From a virus: a DNA stretch of 64,000 bases. The notes beneath the pieces are model-generated. The model searched no databases. It worked only from the letters and a program-made list of their open reading frames with translations, and was not told the origin of the DNA. The stretch lies in the UHGV virus genome UHGV-0371537; one strand, 5' to 3'. Every line of letters begins with the position of its first letter. Position 1 is the stretch's first letter. Both the position numbers and the translations under genes were made by a program. Below, piece after piece: positions 1 to 46,246 of the stretch.

Positions 1-1
1 G

Positions 2-601
2 TCTGATCTTTCCTACTGTGCTGGGTTCTCCCAGGCAGTCGCCATCGACAAGTCTGGTTCCATAGAGAACTTTGCTGAACTCTGGAACACGGGCAACGTC
101 TCCACTGCTGTGGTCAATGCTGGGATTGAGTTCAACCGTTACAAACAGGGAGCCTATAACCTCAAGGGCTACCTCAATGACGATGAATTTAATCGAGGCG
201 GAATGGAGGCTGGCGATTTGATCATGACTGGCCGAATGGGCACCCAAGGCCGAATGACAGTCAGACAGTGCCGTTCGCTTCCTTCTCCGGCATTACAGAA
301 GGGTGTGCAGATAGGCCGCCGTCACCTGAACCTCATCAACGATGGCAACCAGTGCATCAAAGTATTCGAATACAGCGCTACACAGACCTCTGATCGCGTC
401 CTGAAGAAGGAATGGCGTACTCGCGCTCTTGGTCTCAGAGCCTGGCTGGTTGAGAACGATCATTATTTTGAGGATCGTGTTCAGAACGGTCTGAAAGACC
501 TGGCCACGAATCTGAGCGTGAACCTTGATGATCCTCGCATGTCGCGCGAACTTCAGCAGACTCGTGTTGACTGCGACAATATGATGAAGGAGAACGAGTG
601 A
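2..601 (+). CDS. hypothetical protein, 5'-partial (reading frame open to window start)
   Basis: Frame is open from position 2 with no stop; stop codon overlaps next start (ATGA at 598-601). No recognisable motif. Confidence 0.45.
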   Translation, partial: SDLSYCAGFSQAVAIDKSGSIENFAELWNTGNVSTAVVNAGIEFNRYKQGAYNLKGYLNDDEFNRGGMEAGDLIMTGRMGTQGRMTVRQCRSLPSPALQKGVQIGRRHLNLINDGNQCIKVFEYSATQTSDRVLKKEWRTRALGLRAWLVENDHYFEDRVQNGLKDLATNLSVNLDDPRMSRELQQTRVDCDNMMKENE

Positions 602-915
602 TGAAAGGTAAAATCCTACTCCTGCTGTTACTGATGACCGGGTGTGTAAACGCTACACCACCGTCTAAACTGAATACCTGCGCCGCCTGGATGGAGACGT
701 ATCAGCAGTTCCACCCAGATGACAAAGATACATCTATCCTCCTGTCTGACTTCGAGGGGGAGCTGAAGCGCCTTGATCTGTTCAGTGTTGATCAGATAGA
801 GAATGCGCTGGATCTTCCCATGATGCTGACTGCGGCTGATAACAGCCCACAGACGAAGAAAGATCTGATGTATTGCCGGGGGATTGCCCAAGACTTTGTT
901 GGCGTTTCAAAATAG
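598..915 (+). CDS. small lipoprotein (signal peptide with lipobox L-M-T-G-C)
   Basis: N-terminus MMKGKILLLLLLMTGCVNAT is a classic type II signal peptide/lipobox; start overlaps upstream stop. Confidence 0.5.
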   Translation: MMKGKILLLLLLMTGCVNATPPSKLNTCAAWMETYQQFHPDDKDTSILLSDFEGELKRLDLFSVDQIENALDLPMMLTAADNSPQTKKDLMYCRGIAQDFVGVSK

Positions 916-965
916 ATTTCAGGGTAAAATTTAACCCTCCATTGAAATTGAAGGAATACATTGTG

Positions 966-1913
966 ATGCTCCTGACGAAAACAATCGCTGCGGCGATCAT
1001 CGAAAAGAATAAATCATTCGCTCCAAACTCAGCGCGGGTGATGCTCGTACATGATGACGCCCGTGTCATCTTCGCCGAGAAGTTCGAGCAAGGCTCTACA
1101 TTCTGGTTCGCTGACACCATGCGTGAAAGCAAACTGCAGGGCATCATCCACAAACTGACTTTGGTTGCCAAGCGCAATGATCAGGGCGACTGGGTGGGTG
1201 TTTCCGACTTCAGTACGAAGATCACACCAAAGGCTCCGCTTTCTCGTCAAGAGCGCATTCTGGAAGCCCAGGAAAAGCTGCGTGCGGCTCGGAGCACACC
1301 GAAGGCGAAACCAGATGCAAGTCCGGTCATAACTCCTGCCACCAAACTGCCTCCCGTGAGCGAAAAGTCTGTTGAGCAATATGCGGAGAAGCGCAAGGGT
1401 GTGGTTGTGGAATCACAACGTCTGGTGAAAACAGAGAATGGTCACGCAGTTGTCAAGACCGAAAAGACTGTAGAACCCTTTAAGGATTCTTCAAAATCAG
1501 CTGTTGAAGTCGTGTCCGCAGTAACTGAAGTTGTCAGTAAAGTTCGCGAAGACATGATCGCCTTGGGTGCCTTGAGCGAACCCTCTGAATTCATTTCCCT
1601 GCGCGAACTTGAACCGCCTGCCCGCCGCCGGGTTGCCAATGAGATGTTTGTATCATTCAGGCCGGATGGAAAGATCATTCTGTGTAAAGCCCTGCGCGAT
1701 GCACTCCCTTGGACAACTCTGAACATGATGGTGACCCGCGACTTCAAACGTTTCGGTGTCTGTGCTGGAAAGGACTACAACGTCAACCAGAGCGGGACTT
1801 ATGTCAACCGCGCCATGTGCTCCAAGCTGACCTTCCCAGAAGATTCCGGAACTATCCGTGTCGTCGTAGAGTGGGATGACAAGCTGAACATGTATGTTGG
1901 CGATTTCCAATAA
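966..1913 (+). CDS. hypothetical protein
   Basis: Long ORF; ATG at 966 preceded by AAGGAA; track ORF begins earlier at an alternative start. Confidence 0.5.
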   Translation: MLLTKTIAAAIIEKNKSFAPNSARVMLVHDDARVIFAEKFEQGSTFWFADTMRESKLQGIIHKLTLVAKRNDQGDWVGVSDFSTKITPKAPLSRQERILEAQEKLRAARSTPKAKPDASPVITPATKLPPVSEKSVEQYAEKRKGVVVESQRLVKTENGHAVVKTEKTVEPFKDSSKSAVEVVSAVTEVVSKVREDMIALGALSEPSEFISLRELEPPARRRVANEMFVSFRPDGKIILCKALRDALPWTTLNMMVTRDFKRFGVCAGKDYNVNQSGTYVNRAMCSKLTFPEDSGTIRVVVEWDDKLNMYVGDFQ

Positions 1914-1969
1914 TCAATAACCTCGGGCGGCTTATCATAAAGTCGCCCTTTCATTTGAGAGACTATATC

Positions 1970-2632
1970 ATGGAAAAACTTTATTCTATTATCGTCGGTC
2001 CTGATCCCGACGGATTATTCTTCGCCCCGTTGTCCTATGTCGCCCACGCCCGTATCGGCAGTCATTACGCGTATTGCACACATGGTCACGACGGTTCCAA
2101 TGTGCTCCATTATAGTCGCCTGAACGATTTCCTGGCACTTCAACCAGAAGACGTTGTGCTGGCGCGTCGCGTGTTCATTGATTTCAACGCGATGCACAAC
2201 AACGAAATCGACGCTCGCTACCATGCCATGCGTTCTATGGAAGGGCGAGACTGCATTTATCGTATCGACCATTTTGGTGAGTTTACCCAATCGATCGATT
2301 GGTTCGTTTCGGACAAGACATTGGGCGAAAGAATTGTCACGACTCCGTGGGTGCATGCGGAACAACTTCGTGTGTCTACCGATGCGTACAAAGAAGTCGA
2401 CAATCTGTGCAACAAGTTCCGCATCTCGGTGACCTGTAATCAAGACCTGGGAGAAGAGATCCAATGGACAGCTGAGTCTCCTCATTTCAGTGACCTGGTG
2501 ATGACAGCAGAAACCCGTTCCCGCGCTGTCGTTCAGTTGGTTCTATGGGCGTTCTACCAGCGCACCCCGTTCTCCTACATGGGGCAGAAAGCGATTGACG
2601 AACTCCTGAAGTCTCACGCGGTGGAGGTATAA
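1970..2632 (+). CDS. hypothetical protein
   Basis: ORF with ATG at 1970 (track ORF begins at TTG 1955); no recognisable motif. Confidence 0.45.
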   Translation: MEKLYSIIVGPDPDGLFFAPLSYVAHARIGSHYAYCTHGHDGSNVLHYSRLNDFLALQPEDVVLARRVFIDFNAMHNNEIDARYHAMRSMEGRDCIYRIDHFGEFTQSIDWFVSDKTLGERIVTTPWVHAEQLRVSTDAYKEVDNLCNKFRISVTCNQDLGEEIQWTAESPHFSDLVMTAETRSRAVVQLVLWAFYQRTPFSYMGQKAIDELLKSHAVEV

Positions 2633-2633
2633 C

Positions 2634-2921
2634 ATGGCTGGCGTATGGTGTGATGTCTTGCTGGTTCGATACAGCGTAAATGGGTGCGCCCAAGTGCGTT
2701 CCACCTTCTATCCGGTTCCATTCTCTTCCGGCGGCCTGACAATTCAAAGAGTTCTCGACATAGAGTCAGAACTGAACAAACGATCTTGGGGTGTGCGTGG
2801 TGTACAAGTCCTGGGGTACGATCTTCTGAATGAAATGATGGTTGAAGAAGACAAAGTTGAGACTGTCATTGGTCGCCCGGAGATGGAATTGTTAATCTCC
2901 AAATCGGAGGTCAAATCATGA
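2634..2921 (+). CDS. hypothetical small protein
   Basis: Small ORF tightly packed between neighbours; no motif. Confidence 0.25.
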   Translation: MAGVWCDVLLVRYSVNGCAQVRSTFYPVPFSSGGLTIQRVLDIESELNKRSWGVRGVQVLGYDLLNEMMVEEDKVETVIGRPEMELLISKSEVKS

Positions 2922-3166
2922 GTCCCAACATGGCAATAATCTGGGTTGGTGAATCGTCAATACGTTGTCTTCACAAGACGATCACCTTCTTGGATGATGA
3001 GCGCCTGGCCGAACAACGGGTTGAAGTCCGCGAAATGCAGGTTTCTTCAAAGGCGGTGAACGTTCCTGTGTCTAATGTTCAGACTTTTAAGCCTTGCGTC
3101 AGAGTGATTTGTGAACGCTGTGGATGTTATGGCACGATGACGACTGAAGACGTGGCGAAAGGCTAA
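2918..3166 (+). CDS. hypothetical small protein
   Basis: Small ORF, start overlaps upstream stop; no motif. Confidence 0.25.
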   Translation: MSPNMAIIWVGESSIRCLHKTITFLDDERLAEQRVEVREMQVSSKAVNVPVSNVQTFKPCVRVICERCGCYGTMTTEDVAKG

Positions 3167-3666: not shown

Positions 3667-5385
3667 GTGACAGCATTCAATCAATATACCAAGGCGCTTG
3701 ATGGCGTCGGACCAGTTAGCATAGACCGCATCAAGTCTCTTGCCACTGAGTTCTTCCCATACGACACCGCCAACCCCGGCCAGATGGAGTGCATCGTTGA
3801 AGCCGTTGATGCCCTTGTGAATAAGAAATTCAAACACGTGATCATCGAGGCTCCAACTGGTGTGGGCAAATCCCTCATTGGCACGACCATCCATAACGTG
3901 CTTCGCCATCTGGTTCTTGAGCGCAACCCATATGGTCAGTTCCGCACGTCTATCACGACGCCGACCAAAGGGCTACAGGATCAGTATGCGGCGGAGAAAG
4001 CCGTGGCGATAGACATCCTGAAGGGTAAGAAAAACTATCGTTGCCATATCAGTCCCGACCTGTACTACAACGCCATTCAGTGTCGTATGGCATGCCGTGA
4101 CGGCCACTGTAGTAAGAATCGTTGCCCATATGTTCAGGCTCGTCGTCTTTGGACGGATATCTCCTCCCTGCGCTGCACCAACGCCGCCATGATGGTGGAG
4201 ATGTGCACGACGATCTGTATGAAGCCCGAAAACCGCGCCGATATGCTGATCCTTGACGAGTGCCATAAGATGCCCTCTACGCTCCTAGAGCACACGATCA
4301 TGGAATACAGTATAAATGCTGTAAGAGGGTTGCTTACAATCCCCGAGGGAGTGCCTATCGTGGAGACCATCACGGATATCATCAGGCGCACAGAAAACTA
4401 TGAGCTGGGCAAGCTGTACTCACTAACAGGTGAGATGCATGCGATCTTTGACGACCTGCATGACAAGGTTGAAGCCCTCTTAGAAACCCTTGAGGAACTG
4501 GTAGAAGACGAGCGCCTGACGGAAGCTCAGGTGATGAAGCTGTCTGACATCATTGACACCCTTCACAACCTCAGCGACTACTGTGGCATCATGGGTCAGA
4601 CCAACGCCAGCACCTTCATCGTTCAGGAAAAAGACAAGGGTATGATCCAGTTCAAGCCTGTCATCGCATCTGATGTGTCTCAGTTCGGCCTGTTCCGCAA
4701 GGGCGATTACCATGTTCACATGTCAGCGACCATCTGCGGGATTGAGTCCTATGCTCGTTCTCTGGGTATCCGTGAGGGCGAATATCACAAGATTCAAATC
4801 GGCAACCCCATCCCGATTGAGAATCGTAAGGTCAACTACATGCCCGTCATGAAGATGTCGGCCAACATGGGCGACTACGAGATGAAGAAGCTGGCCGAGT
4901 ACGTGGATGAGATCATTGCATTCCATCCAGGACAGTCTGGCATCATTCACACAGTCAGTTATGACCGCGCTCTGGCTCTACAGAAGTTCAGCAAGTACCG
5001 GAATATGATTCACGTTCCTCGTACTCGTAAGGCTCTGATGGATATCATGGAGCAGGCGTTCAGGACGAAGACGCCTTGTGTCATCGCCAGTCCGGCTATG
5101 GAAGAGGGGTATGACTTCAAAGGCGATTACAGCCGCTTCCAGATCCTGATCAAGGTTCCATACGATTACCTTGGTGACCCGCTTGTGGCTCATGTAAACA
5201 GTGTAGACCCTTCGGCATACTTCAGGATGGCGGTACTGCGTATCGTGCAGATGTGCGGGCGCTCGGTCAGGGGTGTGAATGACTGGGCTGCGACATACAT
5301 CCTTGATTCTTCATTTGAATCATTAATGATGCGCAACCCAGAGTTCTTCCCCGCATGGTTCACCGATGCTGTGTTCGAGGTTTAG
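3667..5385 (+). CDS. SF2 helicase, DinG/Rad3(XPD)-like with Cys-rich putative Fe-S insert
   Basis: Walker A EAPTGVGKSL, DECH box (LILDECHK), Cys cluster between them (RCHISPDLYYNAIQCRMACRDGHCSKNRCPY); GTG start after TAGGAGGAAG. Confidence 0.7.
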   Translation: MTAFNQYTKALDGVGPVSIDRIKSLATEFFPYDTANPGQMECIVEAVDALVNKKFKHVIIEAPTGVGKSLIGTTIHNVLRHLVLERNPYGQFRTSITTPTKGLQDQYAAEKAVAIDILKGKKNYRCHISPDLYYNAIQCRMACRDGHCSKNRCPYVQARRLWTDISSLRCTNAAMMVEMCTTICMKPENRADMLILDECHKMPSTLLEHTIMEYSINAVRGLLTIPEGVPIVETITDIIRRTENYELGKLYSLTGEMHAIFDDLHDKVEALLETLEELVEDERLTEAQVMKLSDIIDTLHNLSDYCGIMGQTNASTFIVQEKDKGMIQFKPVIASDVSQFGLFRKGDYHVHMSATICGIESYARSLGIREGEYHKIQIGNPIPIENRKVNYMPVMKMSANMGDYEMKKLAEYVDEIIAFHPGQSGIIHTVSYDRALALQKFSKYRNMIHVPRTRKALMDIMEQAFRTKTPCVIASPAMEEGYDFKGDYSRFQILIKVPYDYLGDPLVAHVNSVDPSAYFRMAVLRIVQMCGRSVRGVNDWAATYILDSSFESLMMRNPEFFPAWFTDAVFEV

Positions 5386-6149
5386 TAACCCGCCACGAAG
5401 GACAGATGGCATTTGACATTAGGTTCCAATGATGTCACTGAAATTGTCATGCTGTCCGAATCTTGGCTGAAACTAATGTTGGCGAGAGGTTTGGTCTGTA
5501 TGTGATTGTAGATGCTGTAGAACAGATCCTCGCCACGATACCCGACCTTGCCATCGGTGTCCTGCCAATGCCCCAGGGTTTCATCGTATACATGCACACG
5601 AAACTCGATCATGTGGAAGAGTGCCTTGGGGATGTCTTTGAGTATACTGGTGCCAACCACCGGAATCTCAATAGCTGAATCATTAGAATTCCCTTCATAG
5701 ACCGAAGCCCATGCGAAGGTAGGATCACCGCCTGCAACAGGTGTACGCTTCCAGTATTGGAACTCAGGGTTGCCTGAAGTGTTCTTCTGAAGTAGAATGA
5801 CTTCGCCACCTGTGAAGTTCGTGGTGTCAATGTCATCTCTCTCAAGTACATCGGCCGGAGACCCAATAAATTTCCAGCCTTCGCGATCCAGAAGAGACTT
5901 ATAATAGTCGGTGAACACGTTGCTATCGCCAGCGGAGTTGATGGCGTCTTTGAGGCCTTGGCCTGTCACCATCTCATTCAGGCGAAGCCACATGTCCTTG
6001 ACGGCAGACGCAGCTGCGACCTGCCCGACAGTCCCACCTGCAGTGTAATCATAGATGATATCTTCGAACTTGATAGCATCATTGATGGACAAGAGCAGTT
6101 GCTCAATCTGCGGTGCGGTGAGACTGAAACGATATGCGCGGGGTGCCAT
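5382..6149 (-). CDS. hypothetical late protein (possible virion component)
   Basis: ATG at 6149 preceded by AGAGGAA SD and an exact TATAAATA about 35 nt upstream; track ORF extends further upstream. Confidence 0.5.
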   Translation of the reverse strand: MAPRAYRFSLTAPQIEQLLLSINDAIKFEDIIYDYTAGGTVGQVAAASAVKDMWLRLNEMVTGQGLKDAINSAGDSNVFTDYYKSLLDREGWKFIGSPADVLERDDIDTTNFTGGEVILLQKNTSGNPEFQYWKRTPVAGGDPTFAWASVYEGNSNDSAIEIPVVGTSILKDIPKALFHMIEFRVHVYDETLGHWQDTDGKVGYRGEDLFYSIYNHIQTKPLANISFSQDSDSMTISVTSLEPNVKCHLSFVAGY

Positions 6150-6184
6150 AGTTTCATTCCTCTTTCTATAAAACCAGTTTGGGA

Positions 6185-6192
6185 TATTTATA
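6185..6192 (-). promoter_or_regulatory. T4-type late promoter (TATAAATA) for gene 5382..6149
   Basis: Exact TATAAATA on minus strand about 35 nt upstream of the start codon. Confidence 0.55.
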
Positions 6193-6194
6193 TC

Positions 6195-6722
6195 ATGATA
6201 GAAATTTATTCTGACGGGGGTTCTAACCCGAAGACCAACCAGGCCGCAGGCTGGGCATTTGCCATTAAGCCGATGTCGGGTATGCAATGGAAAGTGTTCT
6301 TTGGGCACCTTCCGCCGCCATCGACGAATAATATCGCCGAGTTGTTGGGAGTCACGAACGCATTGAAATTACTGTGGGCATTCTCTAGAAAGGGTGAGCG
6401 CAGCATACCGGACGTCCGCATCTGGTCCGACAGCCAATACACCATCAATAGCGTACTGGAGTGGCGAGCGAAGTGGGAGTATCAGGGGTTCCCGGAAAAG
6501 AACGTTGAACTCATAAAAGATCTGTTCAGGATCTATGATCTCGTTAGTTCAATTTGTGAAGTTGAACTAAAATGGGTCAAAGGTCATGCGGGTGTTGAAG
6601 GTAACGAACTCGCAGACACGTGGGCTACTGCAGCCAAGAATGACAGCAACTTCCTGATTGAGAACGACAAGATCTCTGTGAAGAAAGTTGTTGGATCTTT
6701 TGATGAATTTATCGGTATCTGA
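6195..6722 (+). CDS. RNase H (RNase HI family)
   Basis: MIEIYSDGGS... aligns with the E. coli RNase HI N-terminus (catalytic D in SDGG), TNN.AEL, WSDSQY, KWVKGHAG..GNE.AD motifs. Confidence 0.75.
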   Translation: MIEIYSDGGSNPKTNQAAGWAFAIKPMSGMQWKVFFGHLPPPSTNNIAELLGVTNALKLLWAFSRKGERSIPDVRIWSDSQYTINSVLEWRAKWEYQGFPEKNVELIKDLFRIYDLVSSICEVELKWVKGHAGVEGNELADTWATAAKNDSNFLIENDKISVKKVVGSFDEFIGI

Positions 6723-19343: not shown

Positions 19344-19372
19344 TTTACTCTTCAATAATGATGCACTATTAT
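19344..19372 (+). promoter_or_regulatory. sigma70-like early promoter TTTACT-N17-TATTAT with AT-rich upstream region
   Basis: -35 TTTACT (19344-19349), 17-bp spacer, -10 TATTAT (19367-19372); preceded by TTTTAAAA repeats (UP-element-like). Confidence 0.55.
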
Positions 19373-20512: not shown

Positions 20513-20542
20513 CCTTCGCATTCATTGCGGAGGTATTTTCTT

Positions 20543-21337
20543 ATGGCCATTCTAAAACTTGGCAACCGTGGCACTGAAGTGAAGGCACTTCAGGATAGCC
20601 TCAACAAAATCGGCTTCACCCTCGTCGCCGACGGCATCTTTGGTAAGGCAACAGAGAACGCTGTCAAGACTGTTCAGGCGGGTGCGGGGCTTGTCATCGA
20701 CGGTATCGTGGGTCCAAAGACCTCCTATGCTATTCGCAACGCTGGAGACGCCCATCAAGATCACCTGACCGAGGCTGACCTTATCGATGCGGCTAATCAG
20801 CTTGGAGTTGATCTCGCCTCTGTAAAGGCGGTCAACCAGGTGGAATCCCGTGGCACTGGCTTCACCAAGTCAGGTAAGATCAAGACATTGTTCGAACGCC
20901 ACATCATGTACAAGAAGCTCATGGCGAAGTTCGGCCAGGCTCGGGCGAATGCTATAGGGCAGATGTACCCGACGTTGGTCAGTCCTTCTGCAGGTGGGTA
21001 CACGGGCGGCGATGCAGAACTGGATCGACTTCATGCGGCCATCAACATCGACGAGGATTGTGCGTACGAGAGTGCCTCATACGGTCTCTTCCAGATCATG
21101 GGCTTCAACTGCCAGGTCTGTGGGTATGCCAATGCCAAGGAGATGTTCAATGACTTCCTGACAGGCGAACGTGCTCATCTGATGGCATTCGTGAAGTTCA
21201 TCAAGGCCGATGCCAAGCTCTGGCAGGCTCTGAAGGACAAGAACTGGGCTGAGTTTGCGCGGCGCTATAATGGTCCGGCGTATGCCAAGAACCAGTACGA
21301 CACGAAGCTCGCTGCTGCATACAAGAGTTTCAGTTAA
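20543..21337 (+). CDS. endolysin: N-terminal peptidoglycan-binding domain + C-terminal muramidase-like domain
   Basis: N-terminus LKLGNRGTEVKALQDSLNKIGF...DGIFGKATENAV (PG_binding_1-like); C-terminus ...YGLFQIMGFN...FARRYNGPAYAKNQYDTKLAAAY (DUF3380-like). Confidence 0.7.
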   Translation: MAILKLGNRGTEVKALQDSLNKIGFTLVADGIFGKATENAVKTVQAGAGLVIDGIVGPKTSYAIRNAGDAHQDHLTEADLIDAANQLGVDLASVKAVNQVESRGTGFTKSGKIKTLFERHIMYKKLMAKFGQARANAIGQMYPTLVSPSAGGYTGGDAELDRLHAAINIDEDCAYESASYGLFQIMGFNCQVCGYANAKEMFNDFLTGERAHLMAFVKFIKADAKLWQALKDKNWAEFARRYNGPAYAKNQYDTKLAAAYKSFS

Positions 21338-46217: not shown

Positions 46218-46246
46218 TTTACTTTCAAGAATAAAGCGCCTATTAT
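46218..46246 (+). promoter_or_regulatory. sigma70-like early promoter TTTACT-N17-TATTAT
   Basis: -35 TTTACT (46218-46223), 17-bp spacer, -10 TATTAT (46241-46246). Confidence 0.55.

What the first reader, a model, noticed from the sequence alone, without database searches (positions are those of the whole stretch)
2..915. Lipoprotein gene translationally coupled to an upstream ORF: spanin-like pair or superinfection-exclusion lipoprotein
ORF 598..915 begins with a textbook lipobox (LLLMTGC) and its start overlaps the stop of the upstream ORF (ATGA). Overlapped gene pairs ending in a small lipoprotein are typical of i-/o-spanin lysis genes. Phage-encoded lipoproteins also act as receptor-blocking exclusion factors. 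The upstream ORF is truncated by the window edge, so its topology cannot be judged.
Basis: partly seen in the sequence, partly recalled or inferred. Interest (0 to 1): 0.4.

Follow-up and report, generated by a model that had tools for sequence, protein, structure and literature searches.

The report
Mislabelled "spanin" pair: two secreted proteins
This is a co-translated pair of exported phage proteins found in all Ackermannviridae and labelled spanins in databases, but they lack the membrane anchors a spanin needs, so their role in the periplasm is still unknown.

Summary
Window 2..601 is the 3' 200 codons of a 228-aa gene (A). Window 601..915 is a 104-aa gene (B) with a lipobox-type signal (LLLMTG-C15). 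B has a strong SD and its start overlaps A's stop by 1 nt (TGATG), or by 4 nt from the GTG; it is not ATGA.

The window is an Agtrevirus-like Ackermannviridae phage. Databases call B "Rz-like spanin" (phrog_3843) and sometimes call A "i-spanin". The comparative data argue against that.
- The lipobox Cys is present in only 8 of 44 distinct full-length B homologues. The rest, including Kuttervirus ECML-4/Mansal, Limestonevirus, Taipeivirus and phiMAM1, have ordinary signal-peptidase-I signals.
- A has a canonical cleavable signal (MKR-LILGVVLAGLAL-PAAA|K), kept even in homologues of 32-35% identity.
- A's AlphaFold model (pLDDT 84) is built of nine short helices and has no known fold relative.
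- There is no homology to lambda Rz/Rz1 or a T4-type (phage 65) spanin pair.
- Manual curation by Kongari et al. 2018 lists Ag3, Maynard, Vi01 and CBA120 as spanin-less.

Best reading: a conserved, disulfide-containing periplasmic protein pair specific to this family. In this lineage the small subunit has gained an outer-membrane lipid anchor. Its function is untested; a periplasmic binding or inhibitor role seems more likely than membrane fusion.

The parts
2..601 (+). Gene A, 3' part: residues 30-228 of a 228-aa protein plus the TGA stop at 599-601. The first 29 codons, including the whole signal peptide, lie upstream of the window. The four family-conserved Cys are all in this part; the first is at nt 17-19.
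   Evidence: reading frame; full-length relatives, conserved Cys35/119/147/220; phrog_4260, unknown function, E=2.6e-135
586..591 (+). Shine-Dalgarno AAGGAG for gene B. It lies inside the last codons of gene A (..K-E-N-E*), 9 nt before ATG601.
   Evidence: the same AAGGAGAACGA(G/A) junction in LIMEstone1, ECML-4 and Magnus
601..915 (+). Gene B, 104 aa (105 aa if GTG598 is used). Small exported protein, phrog_3843. Invariant Cys27 (679-681) and Cys92 (874-876).
601..645 (+). Lipoprotein-type signal of B: MKGK-ILLLLLLM-TG-C15 (Cys codon 643-645). This form is lineage-specific.
   Evidence: pattern match; absent from most homologues
646..654 (+). V-N-A: retained signal-peptidase-I-type site, aligned with the VHA/AYA/VLA/AQA sites of lipobox-less homologues. 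The conserved mature part starts at T19-PPSKLN (nt 655).

Best explanation
Genes A and B encode a conserved, co-translated pair of Sec-exported periplasmic proteins specific to Ackermannviridae. They are not a canonical two-component spanin.

A (228 aa) is made with a classical cleavable signal peptide. Its mature form is a roughly 209-aa all-alpha protein with four conserved Cys, probably forming two disulfides. B is a roughly 85-aa protein with two invariant Cys, probably helical.

In most genera B also carries a signal-peptidase-I signal and should be soluble. In the lineage of this window (Agtrevirus, plus Maynard) the signal was shortened by about 5 residues and gained a Cys. B is then probably lipidated (Lgt/LspA/Lnt) and sorted by Lol to the inner face of the outer membrane, since Val follows the Cys. 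This parallels the PliC (soluble) and MliC (lipoprotein) forms of one inhibitor family.

Because the anchor is optional while the mature sequences are strongly conserved, the pair most likely works by binding a conserved periplasmic target. That target could be a host envelope component or a phage lysozyme, with a role in exclusion or lysis timing, rather than by bridging and fusing the two membranes.

Shown: gene structure, coupling, signal types, conservation pattern, family restriction, A's predicted helices and absence of a fold match. Inferred: export, signal cleavage, lipidation, disulfides, A-B complex formation, and every statement about function.
For: 1. Identity: 88-92% nt identity to Agtrevirus and other Ackermannviridae genomes. 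A is found in 271 phage records and B in 278, with the same organism distribution.
2. Lipobox: among 44 distinct full-length B homologues, only 8 match the lipobox rule, and 6 of those are the L(I/M)(A/T/V)GC type. P0003, 93% identical to the window copy, has Ser in place of the Cys. Checks in named phages: LIMEstone1, PP35, ECML-4, Mansal and Magnus lack it; Maynard and Ag3 have it.
3. The B homologues keep a small-x-small site directly before the conserved (A/T/V)P..(K/N)LN..C start. The signal region is far less conserved than the mature part (mean majority fraction 0.52 vs 0.78).
4. All 30 A homologues, plus the remote P0074, P0075 and P0081 (32-35% identity), start with K/R, a hydrophobic stretch of about 12 residues, then (P)AxA / AWS / ASA / ANA.
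5. The LIMEstone1 record notes a 'putative signal peptide' for both genes. The Ag3 record, which flags TMHMM/Phobius membrane proteins elsewhere, does not flag these two.
7. Remote pairs on metagenomic contigs keep the A-B overlap and the synteny with HU and helicase genes, again without a lipobox.
8. No profile similarity to lambda Rz/Rz1 (0.2% and 0.1% probability). Against phage 65's T4-type spanins only the signal peptides align.
9. Kongari et al. 2018 (PMC6139136, Table 10) list phiSboM-AG3, Maynard, Vi01, CBA120, SFP10, ECML-4, PhaxI, SJ2/SJ3 and Dickeya RC-2014 as spanin-less after manual curation. The Maynard record already carried B as a 'conserved hypothetical lipoprotein'.
10. A sigma-70-like TTTACT-17-TATCAT lies upstream of A in a relative, with no TATAAATA there. 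The pair sits in a block of replication and nucleotide-metabolism genes, about 19.6 kb from the endolysin.
Against: No signal-peptide or lipoprotein predictor (SignalP, LipoP) was available. Cleavage of A's signal and lipidation of B rest on rules, not on a trained model or an experiment.

A's uncharged stretch (16 residues) is as long as the TMDs accepted for some T4-type i-spanins in Kongari's Table S1. Lambda Rz also carries an S-W-A motif after its TMD. Sequence rules alone therefore cannot fully exclude a signal anchor.

Ackermannviridae still need some way to breach the outer membrane, and no better candidate was found. The gene order (large protein with a hydrophobic N-terminus, then a small exported protein, overlapped) and the periplasmic Cys do resemble spanin pairs. 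Center for Phage Technology annotators labelled the Mansal pair i-/o-spanin in 2023.

No functional data exist for either protein in the literature I could search.
Confidence: 0.6

Rival explanations
1. A and B are a genuine two-component spanin. A stays anchored in the inner membrane through its N-terminal hydrophobic segment. B is anchored in the outer membrane, by lipid here and by some other means elsewhere. The complex fuses or disrupts the membranes at lysis.
For: Database labels: phrog_3843 'Rz-like spanin', and i-/o-spanin in ChubbyThor, CAU_YEP3, PP35 and Mansal. The gene order, overlap and SD resemble overlapped or separated spanins. This copy of B has a lipobox with no Asp after the Cys. 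Both proteins have periplasmic Cys, and A's C-terminal third is helical. The family has no other spanin candidate. The combined periplasmic length of about 298 residues is just inside the 62-300 range reported.
Against: The lipobox is absent from most orthologues, including records labelled o-spanin. A has a conserved cleavable-type signal. Its model is made of short helices, not a rod. Conservation across genera is very high (A is 77-95% identical), unlike the fast-diverging spanin families. There is no homology to tested spanins. Expert curation called these phages spanin-less. No lysis genes are adjacent.
Confidence: 0.13
2. B is a receptor-masking, superinfection-exclusion outer-membrane lipoprotein of the T5 Llp or phi80/N15 Cor type. 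A is an unrelated or helper protein.
For: B is a small protein with a lipobox and a predicted outer-membrane destination in this phage. A sigma-70-like promoter upstream of the pair in relatives would fit expression before lysis.
Against: There is no Pfam, PHROG, NCBIfam or PADLOC match to exclusion families. The lipid anchor is missing in most orthologues. B is a core, highly conserved gene across phages of Salmonella, Klebsiella, Dickeya, Serratia and others, whereas receptor-blocking genes are usually variable accessories. From general knowledge, Ackermannviridae adsorb through tailspikes to O-antigen or capsule rather than to a single porin that a small lipoprotein could plug. The strictly conserved coupling to A is not explained.
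Confidence: 0.07
3. This is a sub-hypothesis about processing that sits within the best explanation. The Cys15 in this lineage is incidental: B is cut by signal peptidase I after V-N-A18 and is soluble here as in the other genera.
For: The VNA site is retained and aligns with the cleavage sites of lipobox-less homologues. One close relative (P0003, 93% identity) has Ser instead of Cys. Position -3 is Met in the window copy.
Against: The lineage also carries a roughly 5-residue deletion that shortens the hydrophobic core to 8 residues, typical of lipoprotein signals. All observed variants at -3/-2 (MT, MA, IA, IV) stay within the lipobox rule, which suggests selection. P0003 comes from a single contig.
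Confidence: 0.25

Closest known systems
Two-component spanins (lambda Rz/Rz1; T4 PseT.3/PseT.2)
   Same: Adjacent, overlapping genes. A larger protein with an N-terminal hydrophobic segment is followed by a small exported protein. This copy of the small protein has a lipobox. Both carry periplasmic Cys. Database labels say spanin.
   Different: Most orthologues of the small protein have no lipobox. The large protein has a cleavable-type signal and a roughly 209-aa multi-helix domain, against periplasmic domains of 72-130 aa in the eight curated i-spanins I read. There is no sequence or profile similarity. Conservation is very high. The genes are not near lysis genes. The family is listed as spanin-less by the spanin curators.
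T5 Llp and phi80/N15/T1 Cor exclusion lipoproteins
   Same: A small phage-encoded protein with a lipoprotein signal and a predicted outer-membrane location (this lineage only).
   Different: No homology. The anchor is not conserved. B is a core gene rather than an accessory gene. It is obligatorily paired with A. These phages bind polysaccharide receptors through tailspikes (general knowledge).
PliC/MliC lysozyme inhibitors (soluble periplasmic and lipoprotein forms of one family); T4 Sp and RI as small phage periplasmic regulators
   Same: One family exists as soluble periplasmic or lipid-anchored versions depending on lineage. The proteins are small, exported and Cys-containing, and would act by binding in the periplasm. 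This is an analogy from general knowledge.
   Different: No sequence similarity was found in Pfam, PHROG or PDB searches. PliC/MliC are beta-barrels, whereas B looks helical from its sequence (not modelled). No binding target is known for A or B.

Membership tests
Two-component spanin (o-spanin subunit) | N-terminal outer-membrane lipoprotein signal (lipobox Cys, no Asp after the Cys) in this copy | tested here: met
   MKGKILLLLLLMTG-C15-V fits the PROSITE-type rule I coded. No LipoP or SignalP was available.
Two-component spanin (o-spanin subunit) | Lipoprotein signal conserved among orthologues, as expected if the function needs an outer-membrane anchor | tested here: not met
   Only 8 of 44 distinct full-length homologues match. 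ECML-4, Mansal, LIMEstone1, PP35, Magnus, phiMAM1 and the remote L008/L009 copies have SPase-I-type signals and no Cys there.
Two-component spanin (i-spanin subunit) | Type II integral inner-membrane protein with an uncleaved N-terminal TMD | tested here: not met
   MKR + 12-residue hydrophobic core + P-A-A-A|K. The small-x-small site is kept in all 30 homologues and in three homologues of 32-35% identity. The LIMEstone1 record says 'putative signal peptide'. Caveat: this is rule-based, and a Kyte-Doolittle 19-residue window scores 1.84, so a signal anchor is not strictly excluded.
Two-component spanin | i-spanin gene followed by an embedded, overlapped or closely linked o-spanin gene | tested here: met
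   1-nt (TGATG) or 4-nt overlap with an SD inside A. Such overlaps are common in this genome, by my count of the table.
Two-component spanin | Extended helical or coiled-coil periplasmic domain of the i-spanin (typical but not universal) | tested here: inconclusive
   The AF2 model has nine helices of 10-25 residues plus two 5-residue turns, pTM 0.72. I could not inspect the coordinates. Kongari et al. report more than 120 i-spanins with no coiled-coil prediction, so this is not decisive.
Two-component spanin | Homology to an experimentally characterised spanin family | tested here: not met
   hhalign against lambda Rz 0.2% and Rz1 0.1%. Against phage 65's T4-type i-/o-spanins, 1% and 22%, with signal peptides only aligned. 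phrog_3843 is this family itself, so its label is not independent evidence.
Two-component spanin | Required for outer-membrane disruption (spherical-cell arrest when absent) | not testable with these tools
   No experimental report was found.
Llp/Cor-type exclusion lipoprotein | Sequence membership of a known exclusion family | tested here: not met
   No hits in Pfam, PHROGs (other than phrog_3843), NCBIfam or PADLOC.
Llp/Cor-type exclusion lipoprotein | Outer-membrane lipid anchor as part of the mechanism | tested here: inconclusive
   Present in this lineage, absent in most orthologues.
Llp/Cor-type exclusion lipoprotein | Blocks the phage's own outer-membrane receptor (exclusion phenotype) | not testable with these tools
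   Needs plating and adsorption assays.

The most novel reading that the evidence does not exclude
The A-B pair is the missing outer-membrane-breaching or lysis-control device of the 'spanin-less' Ackermannviridae. It would act from the periplasm with an orphan all-alpha fold and without the two membrane anchors that define spanins. The lipid anchor seen in this window would be a lineage-specific add-on.
Probability: 0.08. Interest if true: 0.75.

Novelty: new variant of a known kind. Interest (0 to 1): 0.38.

Why it matters
Hundreds of Ackermannviridae genomes, many of them phage-therapy and biocontrol candidates, carry these genes labelled 'Rz-like spanin' or 'i-spanin'. That label does not survive a check of the defining features, so the family's route through the outer membrane remains open. 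The pair is a core, highly conserved, family-restricted periplasmic module, and A's predicted fold has no known relative. It is a well-defined target for simple experiments: lambda Rz/Rz1 complementation, deletion, fractionation and exclusion assays. The soluble-to-lipoprotein switch within one orthologous group is also a natural test of whether membrane tethering matters.

Tried and rejected
- Pfam, NCBIfam, PADLOC and PDB sequence searches for A and B found nothing meaningful.
- The first AlphaFold run of A used 13 near-identical sequences and failed (pLDDT 44). Adding three remote homologues fixed it.
- That second run used the last structure job, so B and an A-B complex could not be modelled. 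The afdb50 fold library was unavailable.
- I asked whether B is a duplicate of part of A. It is not (hhalign 6%).
- I looked for a better spanin candidate in the whole Ag3 genome. Two other lipobox ORFs, gp146 and gp196, have no type II membrane neighbour and no C-terminal TMD. No membrane ORFs flank the endolysin in the window.
- I looked for a T4-type late promoter (TATAAATA). It occurs only twice in the window, which is not significant, and not upstream of A in relatives.
- Literature searches for functional data, transcript timing or lysis genes of these phages gave nothing usable. Two searches were wasted on loose terms.
- tRNA and Rfam scans of the window were empty.

Full report
**1. 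What is in the sequence**

The window starts inside an open reading frame (nt 2..601, stop TGA 599-601) that I call gene A. Gene B follows at 601..915: 104 aa from ATG601, or 105 aa from GTG598.

B starts MKGKILLLLLLMTGC|VNATPPSKLN. It has two Lys, an 8-residue hydrophobic core, M-T-G-C15, then Val. This fits the PROSITE-type lipobox rule I coded. Met at -3 is allowed by that rule but is not the canonical L/V/I. Val after the Cys predicts outer-membrane sorting under the E. coli Lol rule (general knowledge).

The junction is AAGGAGAACGAG-TGATG-A. A strong SD sits 9 nt before ATG601. The start overlaps A's stop by one base, or by four bases for GTG598.

About a dozen ORFs in the 64 kb match the lipobox pattern. 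Judged by eye from their N-termini, B is the only one with a signal-like hydrophobic segment.

**2. Where it comes from**

Nucleotides 1-3000 are 88-92% identical to Agtrevirus and related Ackermannviridae genomes such as SKML-39, Ag3, ChubbyThor and EspM4VN. B is 99% identical to the SKML-39 protein.

In relatives, A is 228 aa, so the window lacks its first 29 codons. The pair lies in a long same-strand block between a vWFA-domain gene and acyl-carrier gene upstream, and HU, helicase, RNase H, the late sigma factor and gp46/47 downstream. The endolysin is at window 20525..21337, about 19.6 kb away, with no membrane-protein ORFs beside it.

**3. What databases say**

B hits phrog_3843 'Rz-like spanin' (E=1e-53). 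A hits phrog_4260, of unknown function. RefSeq re-annotations copy 'Rz-like spanin' onto B. A few GenBank records call the pair i-/o-spanin: ChubbyThor, CAU_YEP3, PP35 and Mansal. Others say 'conserved hypothetical lipoprotein' (Maynard) or 'hypothetical'.

phrog_3843 is simply this family. It matches remote B homologues that have no lipobox, so the label is not independent evidence. I found no experimental work on either protein.

**4. Test of the o-spanin feature**

I collected 44 distinct full-length B homologues besides the window copy: 42 database cluster representatives and two remote genes read from contigs. Only 8 match the lipobox rule. Six of these are the close L(I/M)(A/T/V)GC type. 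P0003, 93% identical to the window copy, has Ser where the Cys should be.

Named phages confirm the split:
- No lipobox Cys: LIMEstone1 and PP35 (MARKIVLLLLLAVVVGYVAGAYA|AP), ECML-4 and Mansal (MRNIIFLLFFSMLASFQVVA|TP), Magnus (…VVWASNALA|VP) and phiMAM1 (…TGAAQA|AG).
- Lipobox present: Ag3 and Maynard.

The homologues keep a small-x-small site immediately before the conserved mature start (A/T/V)P..(K/N)LN..C. The window copy keeps V-N-A at that place too. The signal region is poorly conserved (mean majority fraction 0.52) and the mature part strongly conserved (0.78). Two Cys, C27 and C92, are invariant across the 17-sequence alignment.

The lipobox lineage also has a deletion of about 5 residues that shortens the hydrophobic core. 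Its -3/-2 variants (MT, MA, IA, IV) all stay lipobox-compatible. This points to a real, derived conversion to a lipoprotein rather than an accident. The ancestral, family-wide function therefore cannot depend on a lipid anchor.

**5. Test of the i-spanin feature**

All 30 A homologues begin MK(R/K)-hydrophobic core of about 12 residues-(P)A-x-A|K. An exhaustive HMM search of 1.8 billion representatives found only 10 hits. It yielded three divergent homologues of 32-35% identity. Their signals differ in sequence but end in AWS|E, ASA|A and ANA|G. Four Cys are conserved throughout.

This is the signature of a cleaved Sec signal peptide, not of a type II membrane anchor. The LIMEstone1 authors annotated a 'putative signal peptide' for both genes. 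The Ag3 authors flagged TMHMM/Phobius membrane proteins elsewhere in the record but did not flag these two.

Caveats remain. No SignalP was available. The uncharged stretch (16 residues) is as long as the TMDs of some T4-type i-spanins in Kongari's Table S1, and lambda Rz also has S-W-A after its TMD. The Kyte-Doolittle 19-residue window scores 1.84.

**6. Structure of A**

With 13 near-identical sequences AlphaFold failed (pLDDT 44). After adding the remote homologues it gave pLDDT 84.1 and pTM 0.72, with all five models at 76 or above.

The model shows helices at 23-47, 50-59, 64-84, 89-105, 108-120, 140-157, 161-180 and 207-227, plus two short helices at 186-196. Residues 1-20 are disordered. 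It is a many-helix domain, not one or two long coiled-coil helices.

**7. Independent expert view**

Kongari et al. 2018 manually searched 677 phage genomes for spanins. They list phiSboM-AG3, Maynard, Vi01, SFP10, SJ2, SJ3, CBA120, ECML-4, PhaxI and Dickeya RC-2014 as spanin-less (PMC6139136, Table 10). All of these are Ackermannviridae. [quoted passage not shown] The Maynard record already carried B as a lipoprotein.

My scan of the whole Ag3 genome found two more lipobox ORFs, gp146 and gp196, neither with a suitable partner.

**8. Conservation of the pair**

A occurs in 271 phage records and B in 278, with the same organism distribution. The difference is in Serratia phages (10 records with B against 3 with A), where the A gene seems divergent or shortened. 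Two remote metagenomic contigs keep A followed by an overlapping B, and keep the synteny with HU and helicase.

In close relatives the SD for B is encoded by A's invariant C-terminal K-E-N-E codons. The two genes are therefore a conserved co-expressed unit.

Upstream of A in relatives there is a sigma-70-like TTTACT-17-TATCAT and no TATAAATA. The same TTTACT-N17-TATTAT motif recurs on the coding strand of the window. This hints at expression before the late phase, but it is weak evidence.

**9. Interpretation**

The best-supported reading is a family-specific pair of exported, disulfide-containing periplasmic proteins. The small partner is soluble in most genera and probably outer-membrane-tethered in this lineage. 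PliC and MliC offer an analogy for such a switch (general knowledge).

Three observations favour a binding or inhibitor role in the periplasm over membrane fusion:
- The anchor is optional.
- The mature sequences are unusually conserved for phage envelope proteins (A is 77-95% identical across genera).
- A has a multi-helix domain rather than a coiled-coil rod.

Exclusion, for example by blocking an incoming tail lysozyme as T4 Sp does, or lysis timing are plausible roles. Both are inference only.

I put the canonical spanin reading at about 0.13 and an Llp/Cor-type receptor-masking lipoprotein at about 0.07. The remaining probability is spread over other periplasmic roles. Whether B is actually lipidated in this phage I put at about 0.7.

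**10. Verdict**

Novelty is modest. The genes are catalogued. What is new here is the demonstration that the spanin label is unsupported, the lineage-specific gain of a lipobox, and the orphan predicted fold of A.

Noticed in passing
window 19344-19372 and 46218-46246 (+); L002 4179, 4535, 5858: A sigma-70-like motif TTTACT-N17-TAT(T/C)AT recurs on the coding strand: 2 matches in the window against 0.04 expected. One copy lies just upstream of gene A in a relative. It is probably a phage promoter class.
   Followed up: partly
window 20525-21337 (+): The endolysin (phrog_1224/2860) lies about 19.6 kb from gene B. No holin-like or membrane ORFs sit next to it, so the lysis genes are scattered in this phage.
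   Followed up: partly
Ag3 genome (L004 47755-48405; L005 48192-48533), outside the window: Two more lipobox ORFs exist in the close relative Ag3: gp146 (213 aa, LLTS-C) and gp196 (113 aa, STTA-C). Neither lies next to a type II membrane protein and both are of unknown function.
   Followed up: partly
RefSeq records NC_019925 (L010), NC_025446 (L011), NC_049462 (L012); P0070 (phiMAM1): The product name 'Rz-like spanin' is applied to B homologues that have no lipobox Cys at all. This looks like an annotation error propagated through phrog_3843.
   Followed up: yes
L013 (Salmonella phage Maynard, classified Kuttervirus): Maynard carries the Agtrevirus-type, lipobox-bearing B allele (93% identical to the window copy), while other Kuttervirus phages such as ECML-4 and Mansal carry the lipobox-less allele. 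This suggests the module was exchanged between genera.
   Followed up: no
window 5382-6308 (-) versus 5958-6722 (+): A 308-aa minus-strand ORF overlaps the start of the plus-strand RNase H ORF by about 350 nt as listed. Relatives annotate shorter versions, so the start codons here are uncertain.
   Followed up: no
window 1-64000: No tRNA genes and no Rfam family matches at gathering threshold anywhere in the window.
   Followed up: yes
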